From: a phage
Direction: 5' to 3' (one strand)
Length of the DNA: 48,114 nt
Sequence record: OZ346203.1
Shown here: positions 9,217-13,334 of the stretch, piece after piece
Numbering within the stretch: the first letter of the stretch is position 1
Layout: each line of letters starts with the position of its first letter
Notes under the pieces: model-generated
Told to the model about the DNA's origin: nothing
The model's database searches: none
The model's input: the letters and a program-made list of their open reading frames with translations, nothing else
Made by a program: the position numbers and the translations under genes

Positions 9217-9879
9217 ATGCACTTGCCTAATGGTTCTCAAATTTTCATCGGCGTTAATATGGGTGAGCCAATTAGCGCGACTCAAATCAGCAATGCTGAT
9301 AATCCTGTTTTTACAACCAAAAACACTCAAAGCATCAAAAAAGGCGCTTATGTTCTTATTGAAACATCTTCTTGGGGCAAACTTGTTAGTCGAGTGCTTC
9401 GAGTTAAGGAAGTATCAGATAATGTAAGTGTTACTCTTGAGGGTGTTAGCACTAAAGATACAAACGTATTTCCAGAAGGACAGAACACAGCAACTTTCCG
9501 AGAAGTGAAATCTTGGGTAGAGGTTCCTTGCGTGCAGGATCTTGCGCAGGACGGCGGCGAGCAACAGTATTACACTTATCAGTGTTTGGCTGATGACCAA
9601 GAGCAGCAGTTGCCGACCTACAAGAGCGCCGTTTCTCTCACCTATACTTTCGCGCATGAGTATGATAATCCGATTTATCCGATCTTGCGCGAGGCTGAGG
9701 AATCCGGCGACGTTACCGCCTTGCGTATGTACGTGCCGAAAGCTAAAGAGATGCGTTGCTGGGCTGGCGTGTTGTCTTTTAATGACATTCCGCAAACCAC
9801 CATGAACGAAATTGAAACTGTTTCCCTTTCCGTATCTCTGAAAGGTCGATTCACGTTCTTACCTTCTGACGTTAAGTAA
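9217..9879 (+). CDS. major tail (tube) protein (putative)
   Basis: 220 aa; AAGGAGG RBS; followed by strong terminator; directly upstream of G/GT chaperone and tape measure. Confidence 0.7.
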   Translation: MHLPNGSQIFIGVNMGEPISATQISNADNPVFTTKNTQSIKKGAYVLIETSSWGKLVSRVLRVKEVSDNVSVTLEGVSTKDTNVFPEGQNTATFREVKSWVEVPCVQDLAQDGGEQQYYTYQCLADDQEQQLPTYKSAVSLTYTFAHEYDNPIYPILREAEESGDVTALRMYVPKAKEMRCWAGVLSFNDIPQTTMNEIETVSLSVSLKGRFTFLPSDVK

Positions 9880-9884
9880 AACAA

Positions 9885-9906
9885 GGGGCGTTGCGCCCCT
9901 TTTTTC
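9885..9906 (+). terminator. intrinsic terminator after major tail gene
   Basis: GGGGCG/CGCCCC stem plus T6. Confidence 0.65.
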
Positions 9907-9947
9907 ATTCCTGTAAAATCAATCTATCAAATAAATTAATTCCACTT

Positions 9948-9964
9948 TTAACAAAAAGTGCTAT
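9948..9964 (+). promoter_or_regulatory. reverse-oriented copy of the conserved element abutting the RBS of chaperone G
   Basis: TTAACAAAAAGTGCTAT immediately followed by AAGGAG and ATG 9979. Confidence 0.35.
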
Positions 9965-9978
9965 AAGGAGATCTTGAG

Positions 9979-10296
9979 ATGGCAAAGATGAAACTAACGT
10001 TAGGCCCACTGCCTGATTTTAAGCTGCCTGTTTCTTTCGTGCTTCCAAATGGTGATGAGCAAGTTATTGTTTTTACCGTGCGCCACAAGAAGGCAAGCGA
10101 GATTCACGAACGATACACGGCAGAAAAGCCGATGAGTGACGTAGAAATGATCACTTTCCTTGCTTCCGGTTGGGATCTGGAAGATGAATTTAACGAGGAA
10201 AACGTTGCTAAATTGCTGGATTATTACCCTTCTGCTTCATTATCGCTGACTGGTCATTATATGAAAGCACTTGCGGGGCAGCGGGTAAAAAACTAA
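9979..10296 (+). CDS. tail assembly chaperone G
   Basis: 105 aa; AAGGAG RBS; ends ...GQRVKN with slippery A_AAA_AAC at 10287-10293 just before TAA. Confidence 0.75.
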   Translation: MAKMKLTLGPLPDFKLPVSFVLPNGDEQVIVFTVRHKKASEIHERYTAEKPMSDVEMITFLASGWDLEDEFNEENVAKLLDYYPSASLSLTGHYMKALAGQRVKN

Positions 10297-10613
10297 AGCG
10301 GGCGGTTTACCTGTTTTACCTCAAGCCGCCAACTGACGCACAATTAGAGGCCGTCGGCCTATCCCGTTCAGACTACGAAGGGGAGGAGCCGCCGGAGGTA
10401 ATTTTTGATGAATCAATGTTTCAATCTTGGGATCTGTTTTGCGCTATGCAGACGCAATGGAGATCGACTAGCGGCAGTGTGTATGGGTTCGACTATAACG
10501 TTTTGCCTATGCTTTTTGACATTTACAAGATTGAGGATCGGGAGATGGCGCTAAATGATTTGCGCATCATGGAACAAAAGGCGCTAGAAATGATTCATTC
10601 AAACAAAACATAA
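9979..10613 (+). CDS. tail assembly chaperone G-T fusion via programmed -1 ribosomal frameshift
   Basis: -1 frame from 10293 is open to TAA at 10611-10613 and joins the 10416-10613 ORF; predicted product about 210 aa; canonical position between major tail and tape measure genes. Confidence 0.65.
10287..10293 (+). other. -1 programmed frameshift slippery heptamer A_AAA_AAC
   Basis: X_XXY_YYZ heptamer in frame with G, 1 nt before its TAA; -1 frame open for 106 further codons. Confidence 0.65.
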
Positions 10614-10633
10614 GCGCCGCAAGGCGCTTTTTT
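10613..10633 (+). terminator. intrinsic terminator after G-T
   Basis: AGCGCC/GGCGCT stem plus T6. Confidence 0.55.
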
Positions 10634-10652
10634 AATATCTGGAGGTTTTAAA

Positions 10653-13334
10653 ATGGCTGAGAAATACGCTGGCCTAACGCTAGGCGTTGACGTGTCGCAG
10701 GTCAATAATGCTGTTAAATCATTGCAGCAATTCAAGAAGGCAAACGACGACGCAAAAAAAAGCGTTAATGAATTTGTTGATTCTGAGGTTGTGGCCCGAC
10801 AGCAAGCAAAACAGCTTGCCGAAGAACTGGCGCGCCAGAAAGCAGAATTTAAGAAAATCCAGGAGTCAATTGATCCCACCGCATCAAAGATGGATAAGCT
10901 GCGAAAGGCAGCGACACAGCTTGATGCGCTATGGAAAAAGGGCGTTGTTCCTGATCAGACTTTTTTTGAGCTTGGGGCAATTCTTGAGACGCAGCAAAAC
11001 AAGCTGATCGCAACCAAAAAAGCGATGACAGAGGAAGGCCGCGCGGCGCTTGAGGAATCAAAGAACAAGGCGCGCGCAGCGGAAGAGGCTAGAAAATTCG
11101 TCCAGGCTTTGCGTGAGCAGGAGGAAGCAGCAGGAAAAAGCAAGTCTGAATTGCTGGAAATGAAAGCGGCACAGCTTGGAGTTAGCCAGGAAGCAGCGCC
11201 TTACATCGCAAGGCTGAAAGAGCAGGAAAAGCAGATCCAGAAACTTGGAATTTCTACGGGCCAATACAATCAAGCAATGAAGCTATTGCCAATGCAGATC
11301 ACAGACGTGGTGACTTCACTTGCTTCTGGTATGCCCGTTTGGTTGGTAGCAATCCAGCAGGGTGGACAGATTAAGGATTCTTTTGGTGGGGTGGCTAATA
11401 CATTTAAGGCACTAATGACCTTTATCACTCCTTTAAGTGCTGGAATGACTGTGTTGACTGGTGCTCTTGGATTTGCTGCATACAATGCATATAAGGCAAA
11501 TGCGCAGCTAAAGGAGATCACAAAAACAGTTGAGGATGCAACTGGTCTTTCTGGTGAGTTTGCCGAAAAGATTGCTACCGGAATCCAGGAGCTTTCCGAC
11601 AAAACAGGAGAAAGCGCCGAAGATCTGGCAAAGGCTTACATCACCACGAAAGACGGCGCGAGCGAGGCGATTAAAAAACTGGTTGACGTTGGCATGACTT
11701 ATGATGACGCAAAAAAGAAAGTCAACGAGTACAAGGGCGCGTCTAGCTTTGTTAGCTTGAATAACGAAATTGCAAACCACAAAAACAAAGTCCTTGAGTT
11801 GGGCGATTCGTGGTATGAAGTGTTGAAAGCGAAACGTGATTACGCTTCCCCGTCAGGCGGCCTGTTAGGTAAAGAGCTTGGCTATGTTAATCCTATGCTT
11901 AAGTTTGCACTTAACACTTATGAAGACATTGGAAAGGTCGTAAAAGATGCGAATAGGGATATGGCTGAGCGAGCGGAGCGAATCGACAAAGAAAACCTGT
12001 CATTAAACAGAGTGAGAGCAGCACAAGAGGCTTTAAACAAAGCCATTGAGGATCAGAAGGGTGTGGCGCGTTCTGCTGATGAAGAACTGAAAAAGCGAGC
12101 GGCTGAAAACGTGGAGTTCAGACGCAAAGAGCTTGAGGAGATCAAGAAGCAGGAGCAGAAAAAGAAAGAGGCTAAAGGCGGAATAGTTCGCGGCCCGACT
12201 GAGCAGCTTGATAAAGAGTTGTACGTTTTAAAGGCGCAACTGGAAACGCTTAAAGAGCATCGCACTGTTAATGATGTTATTTCTCGTCAGCGTAAATCTT
12301 TATGGAGCATCGAAAAGCAGATAGAGATCCTGGAGGATGCGCAGAGCAAGCGTAAATTGACCGGAGCGGAACAGGCGCTACTAAACGAGCAAAAAGCCGT
12401 TCTTGAAATGGCAAGGCAAAAAGCGGAGTTAGGGGATCAGATTGTTTTGCAGGAGCGCAAAAACAAGCTGGAGCAAGATAGCATTAAGTTTATCCGTGAA
12501 ACGCAGGCGGCTATTGATGTGCTTGGCCTTAAGCAACTTGGCTACACTGAAAAGCAGATCGAGCGCGAGCTAGAGTTACGCAAGCTGCGCACCGACTACG
12601 AGGCGCAAGGCGGAAGCGTTAGCGATGAAGTTTTTCAGCAAATGGAGGCAAAACTTAAGCTGTATTACCAGACGCAAGACGAGGCGCAAAGCAACTGGTT
12701 AGCCGGAGCAAAGAACGCATGGGAGCTATTCGCGGAAGATGCAAACAATGCCTATGGCAATGTTCAGCAGATCGCAAGCGAGGCGTTAAACGGCCTTACA
12801 AACCAACTAGCGAATTTTATCGCTACTGGCAAGGCAAACTTTAAAGACTTATCGACGGCTATCATCAAAATGATTATTCAGATGATCACGAAAATGGTTG
12901 TCTTTAATGCTTTATCTGGCCTGATGGGTGGTCAAACCTGGACGATGGGGAGCTTGCTTAAGAACATTGGCGGATTTGCTGGCGGTGGATACACTGGCGA
13001 CGGCGGGAAGTATGAGCCAGCCGGAATTGTCCATAAGGGTGAATTTGTCATGACGAAGGAGGCGACGCAGCGTATCGGGGTAGGCAACTTGTACCGCATG
13101 ATGCGAGGCTATGCTAACGGCGGCGTTGTTGGTAGTTCCGGCTATACTGGCGGTGGCGCTGTCACTGGTGGAGCACCTCAATTTAACATTGGTGGGATTG
13201 ATGTTAGCATCAATAACGGCAGCGATCCGAAGGGCATCGAAACTGGCGTTAAGATGATCTTTACTGATATGATTAAACGTTCCTGTATGCAGGGCGGGGA
13301 GGTTTACGAATTTGTTATGAGCAAGCGAGGTTGA
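10653..13334 (+). CDS. tail tape measure protein
   Basis: 893 aa; long alpha-helical/coiled-coil regions, hydrophobic segment, Gly-rich C-terminus; position after G/GT. Confidence 0.9.
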   Translation: MAEKYAGLTLGVDVSQVNNAVKSLQQFKKANDDAKKSVNEFVDSEVVARQQAKQLAEELARQKAEFKKIQESIDPTASKMDKLRKAATQLDALWKKGVVPDQTFFELGAILETQQNKLIATKKAMTEEGRAALEESKNKARAAEEARKFVQALREQEEAAGKSKSELLEMKAAQLGVSQEAAPYIARLKEQEKQIQKLGISTGQYNQAMKLLPMQITDVVTSLASGMPVWLVAIQQGGQIKDSFGGVANTFKALMTFITPLSAGMTVLTGALGFAAYNAYKANAQLKEITKTVEDATGLSGEFAEKIATGIQELSDKTGESAEDLAKAYITTKDGASEAIKKLVDVGMTYDDAKKKVNEYKGASSFVSLNNEIANHKNKVLELGDSWYEVLKAKRDYASPSGGLLGKELGYVNPMLKFALNTYEDIGKVVKDANRDMAERAERIDKENLSLNRVRAAQEALNKAIEDQKGVARSADEELKKRAAENVEFRRKELEEIKKQEQKKKEAKGGIVRGPTEQLDKELYVLKAQLETLKEHRTVNDVISRQRKSLWSIEKQIEILEDAQSKRKLTGAEQALLNEQKAVLEMARQKAELGDQIVLQERKNKLEQDSIKFIRETQAAIDVLGLKQLGYTEKQIERELELRKLRTDYEAQGGSVSDEVFQQMEAKLKLYYQTQDEAQSNWLAGAKNAWELFAEDANNAYGNVQQIASEALNGLTNQLANFIATGKANFKDLSTAIIKMIIQMITKMVVFNALSGLMGGQTWTMGSLLKNIGGFAGGGYTGDGGKYEPAGIVHKGEFVMTKEATQRIGVGNLYRMMRGYANGGVVGSSGYTGGGAVTGGAPQFNIGGIDVSINNGSDPKGIETGVKMIFTDMIKRSCMQGGEVYEFVMSKRG

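What the first reader, a model, noticed from the sequence alone, without database searches (positions are those of the whole stretch)
9979..10613. Programmed -1 frameshift in the tail assembly chaperone (G/GT) at A_AAA_AAC
The G ORF ends with GTA AAA AAC TAA; the heptamer A_AAA_AAC (10287-10293) is a canonical slippery site. The -1 frame is open from 10293 to 10613 with no stop and joins the annotated 10416-10613 ORF, predicting a fusion of about 210 aa. This matches the conserved G/GT arrangement of long-tailed phages between the major tail and tape measure genes; the apparent 120-nt gap and the separate 65-aa ORF are explained by it.
Basis: partly seen in the sequence, partly recalled or inferred. 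Interest (0 to 1): 0.5.

Follow-up and report, generated by a model that had tools for sequence, protein, structure and literature searches.

The report
Tail chaperone G/GT -1 frameshift site
This is the standard programmed -1 ribosomal frameshift that lets a long-tailed phage (here a T1-like E. coli phage) make a short and a long tail-assembly chaperone from one mRNA; it is real and strongly conserved, but already annotated in sister phages, so it is ordinary.

Summary
The window is a T1-like coliphage (Drexlerviridae, Warwickvirus-like). The 105-codon ORF 9979-10296 (Pfam Phage_TAC_4) lies between the tail-tube and tape-measure genes and ends GTA AAA AAC TAA, so A_AAA_AAC (10287-10293) is in X_XXY_YYZ register. 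The -1 frame is open 10212-10613 and has no ATG/GTG/TTG before 10416. From 10293 it encodes a 106-aa DUF1799 domain whose homology starts upstream of the annotated ATG.

The heptamer plus adjacent stop is identical in 74 of 89 related loci. The codon phase of sequence variation switches from the G frame to the -1 frame exactly at the heptamer. PHROG 17368, a 213-position profile, matches G at 1-107 and the extension at 109-211.

The best explanation is a low-level -1 ribosomal frameshift making a 211-aa GT fusion, as in lambda G/GT. An 8-bp hairpin 7 nt downstream and the adjacent stop may help, but neither is proven.

It is not new. GenBank records of Citrobacter phage Stevie and Klebsiella phage Sparks annotate this joined product, and a genome note states it for T1-like phages. 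The four Warwickvirus records I inspected lack the join, so this is only an annotation fix. I found no experimental proof in this family. Interest is low.

The parts
9217..9879 (+). Tail tube (major tail) protein gene, the upstream neighbour that fixes the G/GT position
   Evidence: Pfam Phage_tail_3, E 2.9e-62. Annotated as major tail protein in relatives.
9883..9908 (+). Terminator-like hairpin plus T-run between the tube gene and G
   Evidence: Pattern scan found an 8-bp stem with 6 GC pairs followed by TTTTCATT. A terminator is annotated in the corresponding gap (between the tube gene and G) in Citrobacter phage Stevie. Function is inferred.
9965..9970 (+). Shine-Dalgarno AAGGAG, 8 nt before the G start codon
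   Evidence: Read from the sequence.
9979..10296 (+). Gene G: tail assembly (tape-measure) chaperone, 105 aa, the zero-frame product
   Evidence: ORF list. Pfam Phage_TAC_4, E 5.2e-31, covering profile positions 1-124 of 124. phrog_17368 positions 1-107.
10287..10293 (+). Slippery heptamer A_AAA_AAC in X_XXY_YYZ register (zero frame GTA AAA AAC)
   Evidence: Sequence. Identical in 74 of 89 related loci, including the 4-fold-degenerate A of GTA/GCA.
10294..10296 (+). Zero-frame stop TAA immediately 3' of the heptamer, overlapping the invariant -1-frame Leu codon CTA
   Evidence: Of the loci that carry the heptamer, the 8 checked all have TAA. Of the 66 tabulated, 64 have TAA and 2 have TGA. A TAA to TGA change keeps both the stop and the Leu codon (CTA to CTG). 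The Leu third position is never T or C.
10301..10330 (+). Candidate 3' stimulatory hairpin: GGCGGUUU (10301-10308) pairs with AAGCCGCC (10323-10330), 14-nt loop, 7-nt spacer after the heptamer
   Evidence: MFE -13.2 kcal/mol, z -1.66, 14 of 200 shuffles fold as well. About two thirds of unique relatives have a hairpin here more than 1 SD below the local background, but Rtp-like and NBD2-like phages do not. 83% of cells are paired, covariation is little, and RNAalifold gives no consensus structure. Unproven.
10293..10613 (+). -1-frame extension ('T' part): 106 codons plus stop, translated only after the shift. Joined to 9979-10293 it gives GT of 211 aa.
   Evidence: Translation. Pfam DUF1799, E 1.5e-12, residues 23-101. 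phrog_17368 positions 109-211, E 1.8e-52. tblastn hits start at residue 1 in the rows listed, and 1113 of 1138 records cover at least 80% of the query. L1 and A4 are invariant in distant relatives.
10416..10613 (+). The 65-aa ORF that GenBank records annotate as a separate gene; it is the C-terminal 65 residues of the T part
   Evidence: Its ATG is 17 nt from the nearest GGAGG (10394-10398), and the Met is not conserved outside close relatives.
10612..10636 (+). Terminator-like hairpin plus T-run overlapping the T stop, before the tape-measure gene
   Evidence: Pattern scan. A terminator is annotated in the corresponding gap (between T and the tape-measure gene) in Stevie.
10653..13334 (+). 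Tape measure protein gene, the downstream neighbour
   Evidence: Pfam TMP_2, E 6.9e-35, and Tape_meas_lam_C, E 6.7e-22.

Best explanation
Gene G (9979-10296) encodes the tail assembly (tape-measure) chaperone of a T1-like siphophage. Most ribosomes terminate at TAA 10294-10296 and make the 105-aa G protein.

A small fraction slip one base backwards on A_AAA_AAC (10287-10293). In the usual model, tRNA-Lys re-pairs from AAA to AAA and tRNA-Asn from AAC to AAA. Those ribosomes then read CTA AAG CGG... in the -1 frame to TAA 10611-10613. The product is a 211-aa GT fusion, the G domain followed by a 106-aa DUF1799 'T' domain.

By analogy with lambda, G and the G part of GT coat the tape-measure protein. 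The T part recruits the tail-tube protein. The slip frequency sets the G:GT ratio, and neither protein ends up in the virion.

What is shown and what is inferred:
- Shown by sequence and comparison: the site and its register; the lack of any start codon for the conserved -1-frame codons; selection on the heptamer; and selection on the -1 frame immediately after it.
- Inferred: that the shift is ribosomal and of low efficiency.
- Inferred: that the hairpin 10301-10330 (7-nt spacer) and/or the adjacent stop codon raise the slip frequency.
- Inferred: the lambda-like division of labour between G and T.
For: 1. Anatomy: zero frame GTA AAA AAC TAA. The -1 frame is open 10212-10613, and its first ATG/GTG/TTG is at 10416.

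2. Gene order is tube, G, T, tape measure. G is Phage_TAC_4 (E 5e-31). The -1 extension is DUF1799 starting at its residue 23, which is 19 codons upstream of the annotated ATG.

3. phrog_17368 (213 positions) matches G at 1-107 (E 1.6e-39) and the extension at 109-211 (E 1.8e-52). The two parts are therefore contiguous in a family profile that spans both parts.

4. The heptamer plus stop is identical in Tempevirinae, Tunavirinae (T1), Braunvirinae (Rtp), Vilniusvirus and Nouzillyvirus. It is also identical in non-Drexlerviridae phages (Dhillonvirus SO-1, phiES15) whose T part is only 32-38% identical. In total 74 of 89 loci carry it.

5. In 64 unique sequences the most variable codon phase is the zero-frame third position upstream of the heptamer (1.6-1.8 bits against 0.4-1.0). 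Immediately downstream it is the -1-frame third position (1.0-1.4 bits against 0.3-0.8). The heptamer and 5 following bases are nearly invariant.

6. The first residues after the slip, L-K-R-A-V, are kept through synonymous -1-frame changes (AAG/AAA; CGG/AGG/CGA).

7. The start codons that annotators chose for 'T' differ between phages: ATG at the 10416 equivalent, GTG at the Val of LKRAV in Rtp, and ATG in NBD2. In 318 database representatives the domain is truncated at arbitrary N-termini.

8. A_AAA_AAC is a proven low-level -1 site in E. coli (IS1) and shifts at more than 0.1% without stimulators (PMC4066793). Lambda needs only about 1 GT per 30 G (PMC5009743).

9. Curated GenBank records of relatives carry a joined 'frameshift product' CDS here (Stevie, Sparks). 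A genome note says the same for T1-like phages (PMC6763657).

10. Internal control: an in-frame A_AAA_AAA heptamer in the tape-measure gene (10754-10760) is present in only 2 of 76 relatives.
Against: - I found no protein-level or reporter evidence for this phage or for any Drexlerviridae.
- A_AAA_AAC is a poor shifter in E. coli, so efficiency may depend on stimulators that are not established. The hairpin is weak here (z -1.66), absent from Rtp-like and NBD2-like relatives, and largely made of conserved Arg-Ala-Val and Pro-Pro codons.
- No in-frame natural G-T fusion was seen among the 150 best representatives of the T domain.
- G and T show no detectable sequence similarity to lambda G and T, so the functional roles are transferred by analogy only.
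- Sequence alone cannot separate ribosomal from transcriptional slippage on the A6 run.
Confidence: 0.9

Rival explanations
1. T is a separate small protein started at ATG 10416 (65 aa), and 10297-10415 is a non-coding spacer, as most GenBank records of near-identical phages annotate it.
For: ATG 10416 opens the only canonical ORF in that frame. JLBYU26, Poky, Henu8 and others annotate it this way. The Met is conserved among core Drexlerviridae ('FDESM').
Against: - The 'spacer' shows -1-frame codon periodicity and conserved amino acids from its first codon.
- DUF1799 and phrog_680 homology extends upstream of the ATG.
- The nearest GGAGG (10394-10398) is 17 nt away.
- The Met is absent in Webervirus, SO-1, phiES15 and HBM00.
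- This reading would not explain why the heptamer and its register are invariant.
- Minor internal initiation in addition to GT cannot be excluded.
Confidence: 0.04
2. GT arises by transcriptional slippage. RNA polymerase adds one A in the A6 run (10287-10292), and standard translation of the A7 mRNA gives G fused to T with a ...VKK-LKR... junction.
For: There is a homopolymer of six A at the junction, and seven A in SO-1 and phiES15. The product would be nearly the same as the frameshift product. Sequence comparison cannot distinguish the two routes.
Against: - Efficient slippage by bacterial RNA polymerase is documented for runs of about 9 A or T, and short runs need special context (PMC5009743).
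- Relatives with the same T domain manage with only four A: Webervirus GCA AAA GTY, and HBM00 CAA AAG. These fit tRNA-Lys slippage, not polymerase slippage.
- The register of the run relative to the G frame is strictly kept.
- The same heptamer is a proven ribosomal site in IS1.
Confidence: 0.05
3. Termination-reinitiation: ribosomes finishing G at TAA 10294 restart nearby in the -1 frame and make a free T protein rather than a fusion.
For: Some relatives have a start codon just after the G stop (GTG 8 nt downstream in Rtp, ATG 17 nt downstream in NBD2), and these are annotated as T starts.
Against: - In this window there is no ATG/GTG/TTG in the -1 frame before 10416.
- Those start codons are not conserved, whereas the residues upstream of them (L-K-R-A) are.
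- Homology to the T part begins at the first codon after the slip in the records listed.
Confidence: 0.01

Closest known systems
Phage lambda gpG / gpGT programmed -1 frameshift (Levin, Hendrix & Casjens 1993; Xu, Hendrix & Duda 2004, 2013, 2014, as summarised in PMC5009743)
   Same: - Two ORFs lie between the major tail gene and the tape-measure gene.
- The second ORF is in the -1 frame and has no start codon of its own.
- A slippery heptamer sits at the end of G.
- The expected outcome is a short abundant chaperone plus a rare long fusion.
   Different: - Lambda uses G_GGA_AAG followed by five more sense codons before the G stop. Here the site is A_AAA_AAC with the stop directly adjacent.
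- There is no detectable sequence similarity to lambda G (BLASTP finds nothing) or to lambda T (hhalign probability 1.3%).
- Lambda's frameshift is experimentally proven; this one is not.
Annotated GT 'frameshift product' of T1-like phages: Citrobacter phage Stevie (KM236241, CPT_Stevie16), Klebsiella phage Sparks (PQ358943), Klebsiella phage Skenny (PMC6763657); PHROG 17368
   Same: Homologous G and T proteins; the T part is about 78-80% identical in Stevie. Stevie has the same GTA AAA AAC TAA site in the same gene order. The fused family profile aligns to this window's G plus extension over positions 1-211 of 213.
   Different: - The Warwickvirus records nearest to this window (JLBYU26, tunus, Poky, mar001J1) do not annotate the join, and some omit T altogether.
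- Webervirus members (Sparks) use GCA AAA GTY TAA instead of the heptamer.
IS1 insA-insB' -1 frameshift at A_AAA_AAC in E. coli (cluster A_AAA_AAC_1 in PMC4066793)
   Same: The identical heptamer in the same host translation system; low efficiency; no established stimulator; it produces a rare fusion protein whose amount matters.
   Different: It is a transposase, not a phage tail chaperone, and the proteins are unrelated. The flanking context in IS1 was not compared here.
g-t frameshift of haloarchaeal siphovirus HCTV-2 (cited in PMC5009743)
   Same: A_AAA_AAC is used as the G/GT shift site.
   Different: Archaeal host and translation apparatus. Homology to this window was not tested.

Membership tests
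Long-tailed-phage tail assembly chaperone G/GT frameshift arrangement | Two ORFs located between the major tail (tube) gene and the tape-measure gene | tested here: met
   The order is tube 9217-9879 (Phage_tail_3), G 9979-10296, T frame to 10613, tape measure 10653-13334 (TMP_2).
Long-tailed-phage tail assembly chaperone G/GT frameshift arrangement | The second ORF overlaps the end of the first in the -1 frame and has no start codon or Shine-Dalgarno of its own for its conserved N-terminal part | tested here: met
   The -1 frame is open 10212-10613. The first ATG/GTG/TTG is at 10416. The nearest GGAGG is 17 nt upstream of that ATG.
Long-tailed-phage tail assembly chaperone G/GT frameshift arrangement | A slippery sequence in the overlap, in X_XXY_YYZ register with the upstream frame | tested here: met
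   A_AAA_AAC at 10287-10293, zero frame GTA AAA AAC.
Long-tailed-phage tail assembly chaperone G/GT frameshift arrangement | Slippery site and -1 reading frame conserved among diverged relatives | tested here: met
   74 of 89 loci have the identical heptamer plus stop. The codon phase of variation switches at the site.
Long-tailed-phage tail assembly chaperone G/GT frameshift arrangement | Two proteins, G and GT, made from one mRNA at a fixed ratio, both needed for tail assembly and absent from virions | not testable with these tools
   Needs immunoblot or mass spectrometry of infected cells and genetics. Known for lambda only (PMC5009743).
Lambda gpG / gpT sequence families | Detectable sequence homology to lambda G and T | tested here: not met
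   BLASTP of G against lambda G gave no alignment at E up to 100. hhalign of the T alignment against lambda T gave probability 1.3%. The window works like lambda G/GT but belongs to other protein families.
Pfam PF08748 Phage_TAC_4 | Score above the curated gathering cut-off over the full domain | tested here: met
   107.9 bits against a cut-off of 21.1, profile positions 1-124 of 124.
Pfam PF08809 DUF1799 (the T part) | Score above the curated gathering cut-off | tested here: met
   48.0 bits against a cut-off of 26, profile positions 3-80 of 80, residues 23-101 of the -1 extension.
PHROG 17368 (fused GT of T1-like phages) | G and the -1 extension align contiguously to one profile | tested here: met
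   G aligns to positions 1-107 and the extension to 109-211 of 213.
Tail assembly chaperone fold (solved TAC structures) | Predicted structure of G matches a solved TAC structure | tested here: inconclusive
   The single-sequence AlphaFold model had mean pLDDT 43.6 and was not usable. A PDB sequence search of GT found nothing relevant.
-1 PRF cassette with 3' RNA stimulator | A conserved stable structure 5-9 nt downstream of the heptamer, supported by covariation | tested here: inconclusive
   A hairpin with a 7-nt spacer folds at -13.2 kcal/mol, z -1.66. About two thirds of relatives have a hairpin stronger than the local background, while Braunvirinae and others have none. 83% of cells are paired, compensatory changes are few, and there is no RNAalifold consensus.

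The most novel reading that the evidence does not exclude
The invariably adjacent stop codon may be a working part of the signal. The zero-frame stop (UAA, or UGA in two relatives) always overlaps the -1-frame Leu codon, whose third base is never U or C. Slow termination with tRNA-Asn on AAC in the P site would drive the -1 slip. The Drexlerviridae GT site would then be a minimal, stop-stimulated, structure-independent -1 frameshift cassette. That would explain how lineages without any downstream hairpin (Rtp-like, NBD2-like) still make GT from a heptamer that is weak in E. coli.
Probability: 0.3. Interest if true: 0.3.

Novelty: already known. Interest (0 to 1): 0.12.

Why it matters
The practical value is small but real. 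The four Warwickvirus records I inspected (and other related Drexlerviridae records) list a truncated 65-aa 'hypothetical protein', or nothing at all, where a 211-aa GT chaperone should be annotated with a join at 10293.

Scientifically the site adds nothing new in kind, since G/GT frameshifting is textbook phage biology. The dense sampling of this family does offer a clean natural series for asking what makes a weak heptamer work in E. coli. The series includes A_AAA_AAC with a stop and with or without a hairpin, and A_AAA_G or A_AAG variants carrying the same T domain.

Tried and rejected
- **Upstream Shine-Dalgarno-like stimulator** (GGGG at 10275-10278, about 8 nt before the heptamer). Rejected: those G's include zero-frame third positions that vary almost maximally in relatives (1.97 bits).
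- **Alternative slip at G_GGG (10275-10278)** inside the overlap. Rejected for the same reason.
- **Rfam search of 9850-10700.** Nothing at the site. The only hits are sub-threshold sRNA models over the terminator at 9872-9956.
- **Consensus RNA structure over 49 relatives.** RNAalifold predicts none.
- **Structure prediction.** The single-sequence model of G was too poor to search with.
- **The search for homologous proteins with the fused GT.** It returned only three T-frame ORFs of 123-136 aa and no fusions, because the word index limits its reach.
- **PDB sequence search.** No relevant hit.
- **Homology to lambda G and T.** None found.
- **P0041**, a 2059-aa protein with ten 'matches' to the T part. 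It is an acidic-repeat surface protein matching the EGEEPPE stretch, so the hit is spurious.
- **Xu et al. 2004 (Mol Cell).** The paper could not be read in the held library, so I cannot say whether T1 was in their table.

Full report
**What the window is.** A 1.5-kb query around the finding matches 83 phage records. The best are 98% identical E. coli siphophages of Drexlerviridae, Tempevirinae, genus Warwickvirus, such as JLBYU26, tunus and Poky. The local gene order is tail-tube gene 9217-9879 (Pfam Phage_tail_3), a 105-codon ORF 9979-10296, a 119-nt apparently empty stretch, a 65-codon ORF 10416-10613, and the tape-measure gene 10653-13334 (TMP_2, Tape_meas_lam_C). These are followed by lambda-like minor tail genes.

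**Check of the observation.**
- G ends CAG CGG GTA AAA AAC TAA, so A_AAA_AAC (10287-10293) is in X_XXY_YYZ register, and the stop is at 10294-10296.
- The -1 frame is open from 10212 to TAA 10611-10613. Read from 10293 it gives LKRAVYLFYLKPP... and runs into the annotated 65-aa ORF.
- The predicted fusion is 105 + 106 = 211 aa.
- There is no ATG, GTG or TTG in the -1 frame between 10212 and 10415.
- G has a good Shine-Dalgarno (AAGGAG 9965-9970, 8-nt spacer). ATG 10416 has none at a usable distance, since GGAGG 10394-10398 is 17 nt away.
- A 106-codon open -1 frame is unusual here. The mean is 14 codons, and 2% of positions reach 106.

**What the two parts are.**
- G is a full-length match to Pfam Phage_TAC_4 (E 5.2e-31).
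- The -1-frame extension matches DUF1799 (E 1.5e-12) from its residue 23, which is 19 codons upstream of the annotated ATG.
- In PHROGs, one 213-position family (phrog_17368) matches G at positions 1-107 and the extension at 109-211. The two pieces are therefore neighbours in a profile that spans both parts, with the seam where the heptamer predicts it.
- tblastn with the extension finds 1138 phage records. 1113 of them cover at least 80% of the query, and in almost all listed rows the hit starts at residue 1, down to about 30% identity.

**Comparative evidence.** I read this region in 89 related loci: 9 from GenBank records and 80 from IMG/VR.
- GTA/GCA AAA AAC followed directly by a stop is present in 74 of them. 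They span Tempevirinae, T1 itself, Rtp, Vilniusvirus and Nouzillyvirus. It is also present in the non-Drexlerviridae phages SO-1 and phiES15 (GAA AAA AAC TAA).
- Two loci have TGA instead of TAA. This change keeps both the zero-frame stop and the -1-frame Leu (CTA to CTG).
- In 64 unique sequences the most variable codon phase upstream of the heptamer is the G-frame third position (1.6-1.8 bits against 0.4-1.0).
- From the heptamer onward it is the -1-frame third position (1.0-1.4 bits against 0.3-0.8).
- The heptamer itself is invariant within this set, which was selected for carrying it. That includes the 4-fold-degenerate A of GTA/GCA, whose neighbouring third positions vary at 1.5-2.0 bits. 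The five bases that follow it, which were not selected on, are nearly invariant.
- The first residues after the slip are held by synonymous -1-frame changes, and L1 and A4 are invariant even in 28-38% identical relatives.
- By contrast, the start codons that annotators picked for 'T' differ from phage to phage. In 318 database representatives the domain begins at arbitrary points.
- An in-frame A_AAA_AAA heptamer in the tape-measure gene of this window (10754-10760) serves as a control. It is found in only 2 of 76 relatives.

**How it most likely works.** A minority of ribosomes slip -1 on A_AAA_AAC and make GT.
- In E. coli this heptamer is a low-efficiency shifter. It shifts at more than 0.1% without stimulators and is much weaker than A_AAA_AAG. 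It is nevertheless a proven programmed site in IS1 (PMC4066793; PMC5009743).
- A low rate is what the system needs, since lambda makes about 30 G per GT.
- The first possible enhancer is an 8-bp hairpin (10301-10308 with 10323-10330) that starts 7 nt after the heptamer. It folds at -13.2 kcal/mol, with z -1.66.
- Most Tempevirinae and Tunavirinae have a stronger version (-14 to -20 kcal/mol against a local background of about -6). Webervirus and SO-1 have different hairpins at the same place. Rtp-like and NBD2-like phages have none.
- Covariation is slight and confounded by conserved Arg-Ala-Val and Pro-Pro codons, and RNAalifold gives no family-wide structure.
- The second possible enhancer is the adjacent stop codon. 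Its position is conserved beyond what the Leu codon alone requires, since the third base is A or G and never T or C. Neither enhancer is demonstrated.
- The junction may be VKN-LKR (tandem slip or tRNA-Asn P-site slip) or VKK-LKR (tRNA-Lys P-site slip).
- The roles of the domains are taken from lambda by analogy: G binds the tape measure and T binds the tube protein. The proteins share no detectable sequence similarity with lambda G or T. In lambda, the stop lies five codons after G_GGA_AAG rather than adjacent to it.

**Rivals.**
- Independent initiation at ATG 10416 does not explain the conserved, correctly phased 41 codons upstream of it.
- Reinitiation after the G stop has no start codon to use in this phage.
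- Transcriptional slippage on six A's cannot be excluded from sequence alone. It is unlikely because efficient bacterial slippage is documented for runs of about nine. Relatives with the same T domain also manage with only four A's in a tRNA-Lys-slip context: Webervirus GCA AAA GTY and HBM00 CAA AAG.

**Novelty.** The arrangement is the classic G/GT frameshift.
- In this very family it is already annotated as a joined CDS in Citrobacter phage Stevie, which has the identical heptamer, and in Klebsiella phage Sparks.
- It is stated in the Skenny genome note for T1-like phages (PMC6763657).
- It is embodied in PHROG 17368.
- The nearest Warwickvirus records inspected do not annotate it, and one omits T altogether. 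The finding therefore amounts to an annotation correction.
- I found no experimental demonstration for any Drexlerviridae in the searchable literature. Xu et al. 2004 could not be read.

**Verdict.** The kind of feature is already known, and interest is low.

Noticed in passing
window 9883-9908 and 10612-10636: G and T are bracketed by two terminator-like GC hairpins with T-runs, one after the tube gene and one overlapping the T stop. Both score on both strands. Stevie's record annotates terminators in the corresponding gaps, after the tube gene and after T. Leaky termination may step down expression from the tube gene to the chaperones to the tape measure. A sub-threshold Rfam hit (STnc50, 33.8 bits against a cut-off of 55) at 9872-9956 on the minus strand is probably just this hairpin.
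   Followed up: partly
L085-L095, L012 (Webervirus-like) and L015 (Klebsiella phage HBM00): Phages with the same DUF1799 T domain use other slip motifs. Webervirus has GCA AAA GTY/GCC TAA (A_AAA_G type, only four A's). HBM00 has CAA AAG CAC TAA (the A_AAG tetramer). In both, the zero-frame stop still overlaps the invariant -1-frame Leu codon CTA.
   Followed up: partly
L050, L051, L070, L082 at about position 1195-1200: Four of 89 relatives have five A's instead of six at the slip site. That puts T in the +1 frame relative to G. Three of them also have other frame breaks in G or T nearby, so these are probably homopolymer sequencing errors. L051 has only the A5 change, which leaves open a real variant needing a +1 slip on AAA_A.
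   Followed up: partly
window 10754-10761: A run of eight A's forms an in-frame A_AAA_AAA heptamer at codons 34-36 of the tape-measure gene (GCA AAA AAA AGC). A -1 shift there would stop after two codons. It is present in only 2 of 76 relatives, so it is probably incidental, but it is a potential slippage hotspot for both ribosomes and RNA polymerase.
   Followed up: yes
window 10394-10554: GGAGG (10394-10398) followed 9 nt later by ATG 10408 opens a 48-codon ORF (listed from TTG 10405 as 49 aa). It lies in the G reading frame (+1 relative to T), nested inside the T coding sequence. The motif is forced by the conserved T residues PPEVIFDE, so it is probably meaningless. Not examined further.
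   Followed up: no
L013 (Sodalis phage SO-1) 705-745: A distant relative, with a T part 32% identical, has the same A_AAA_AAC TAA site. It is followed at the same 7-8 nt spacing by a much stronger and differently sequenced hairpin (-22 kcal/mol against a local background of -8.7). This suggests that a 3' stem-loop is maintained independently of the protein sequence in some lineages.
   Followed up: partly
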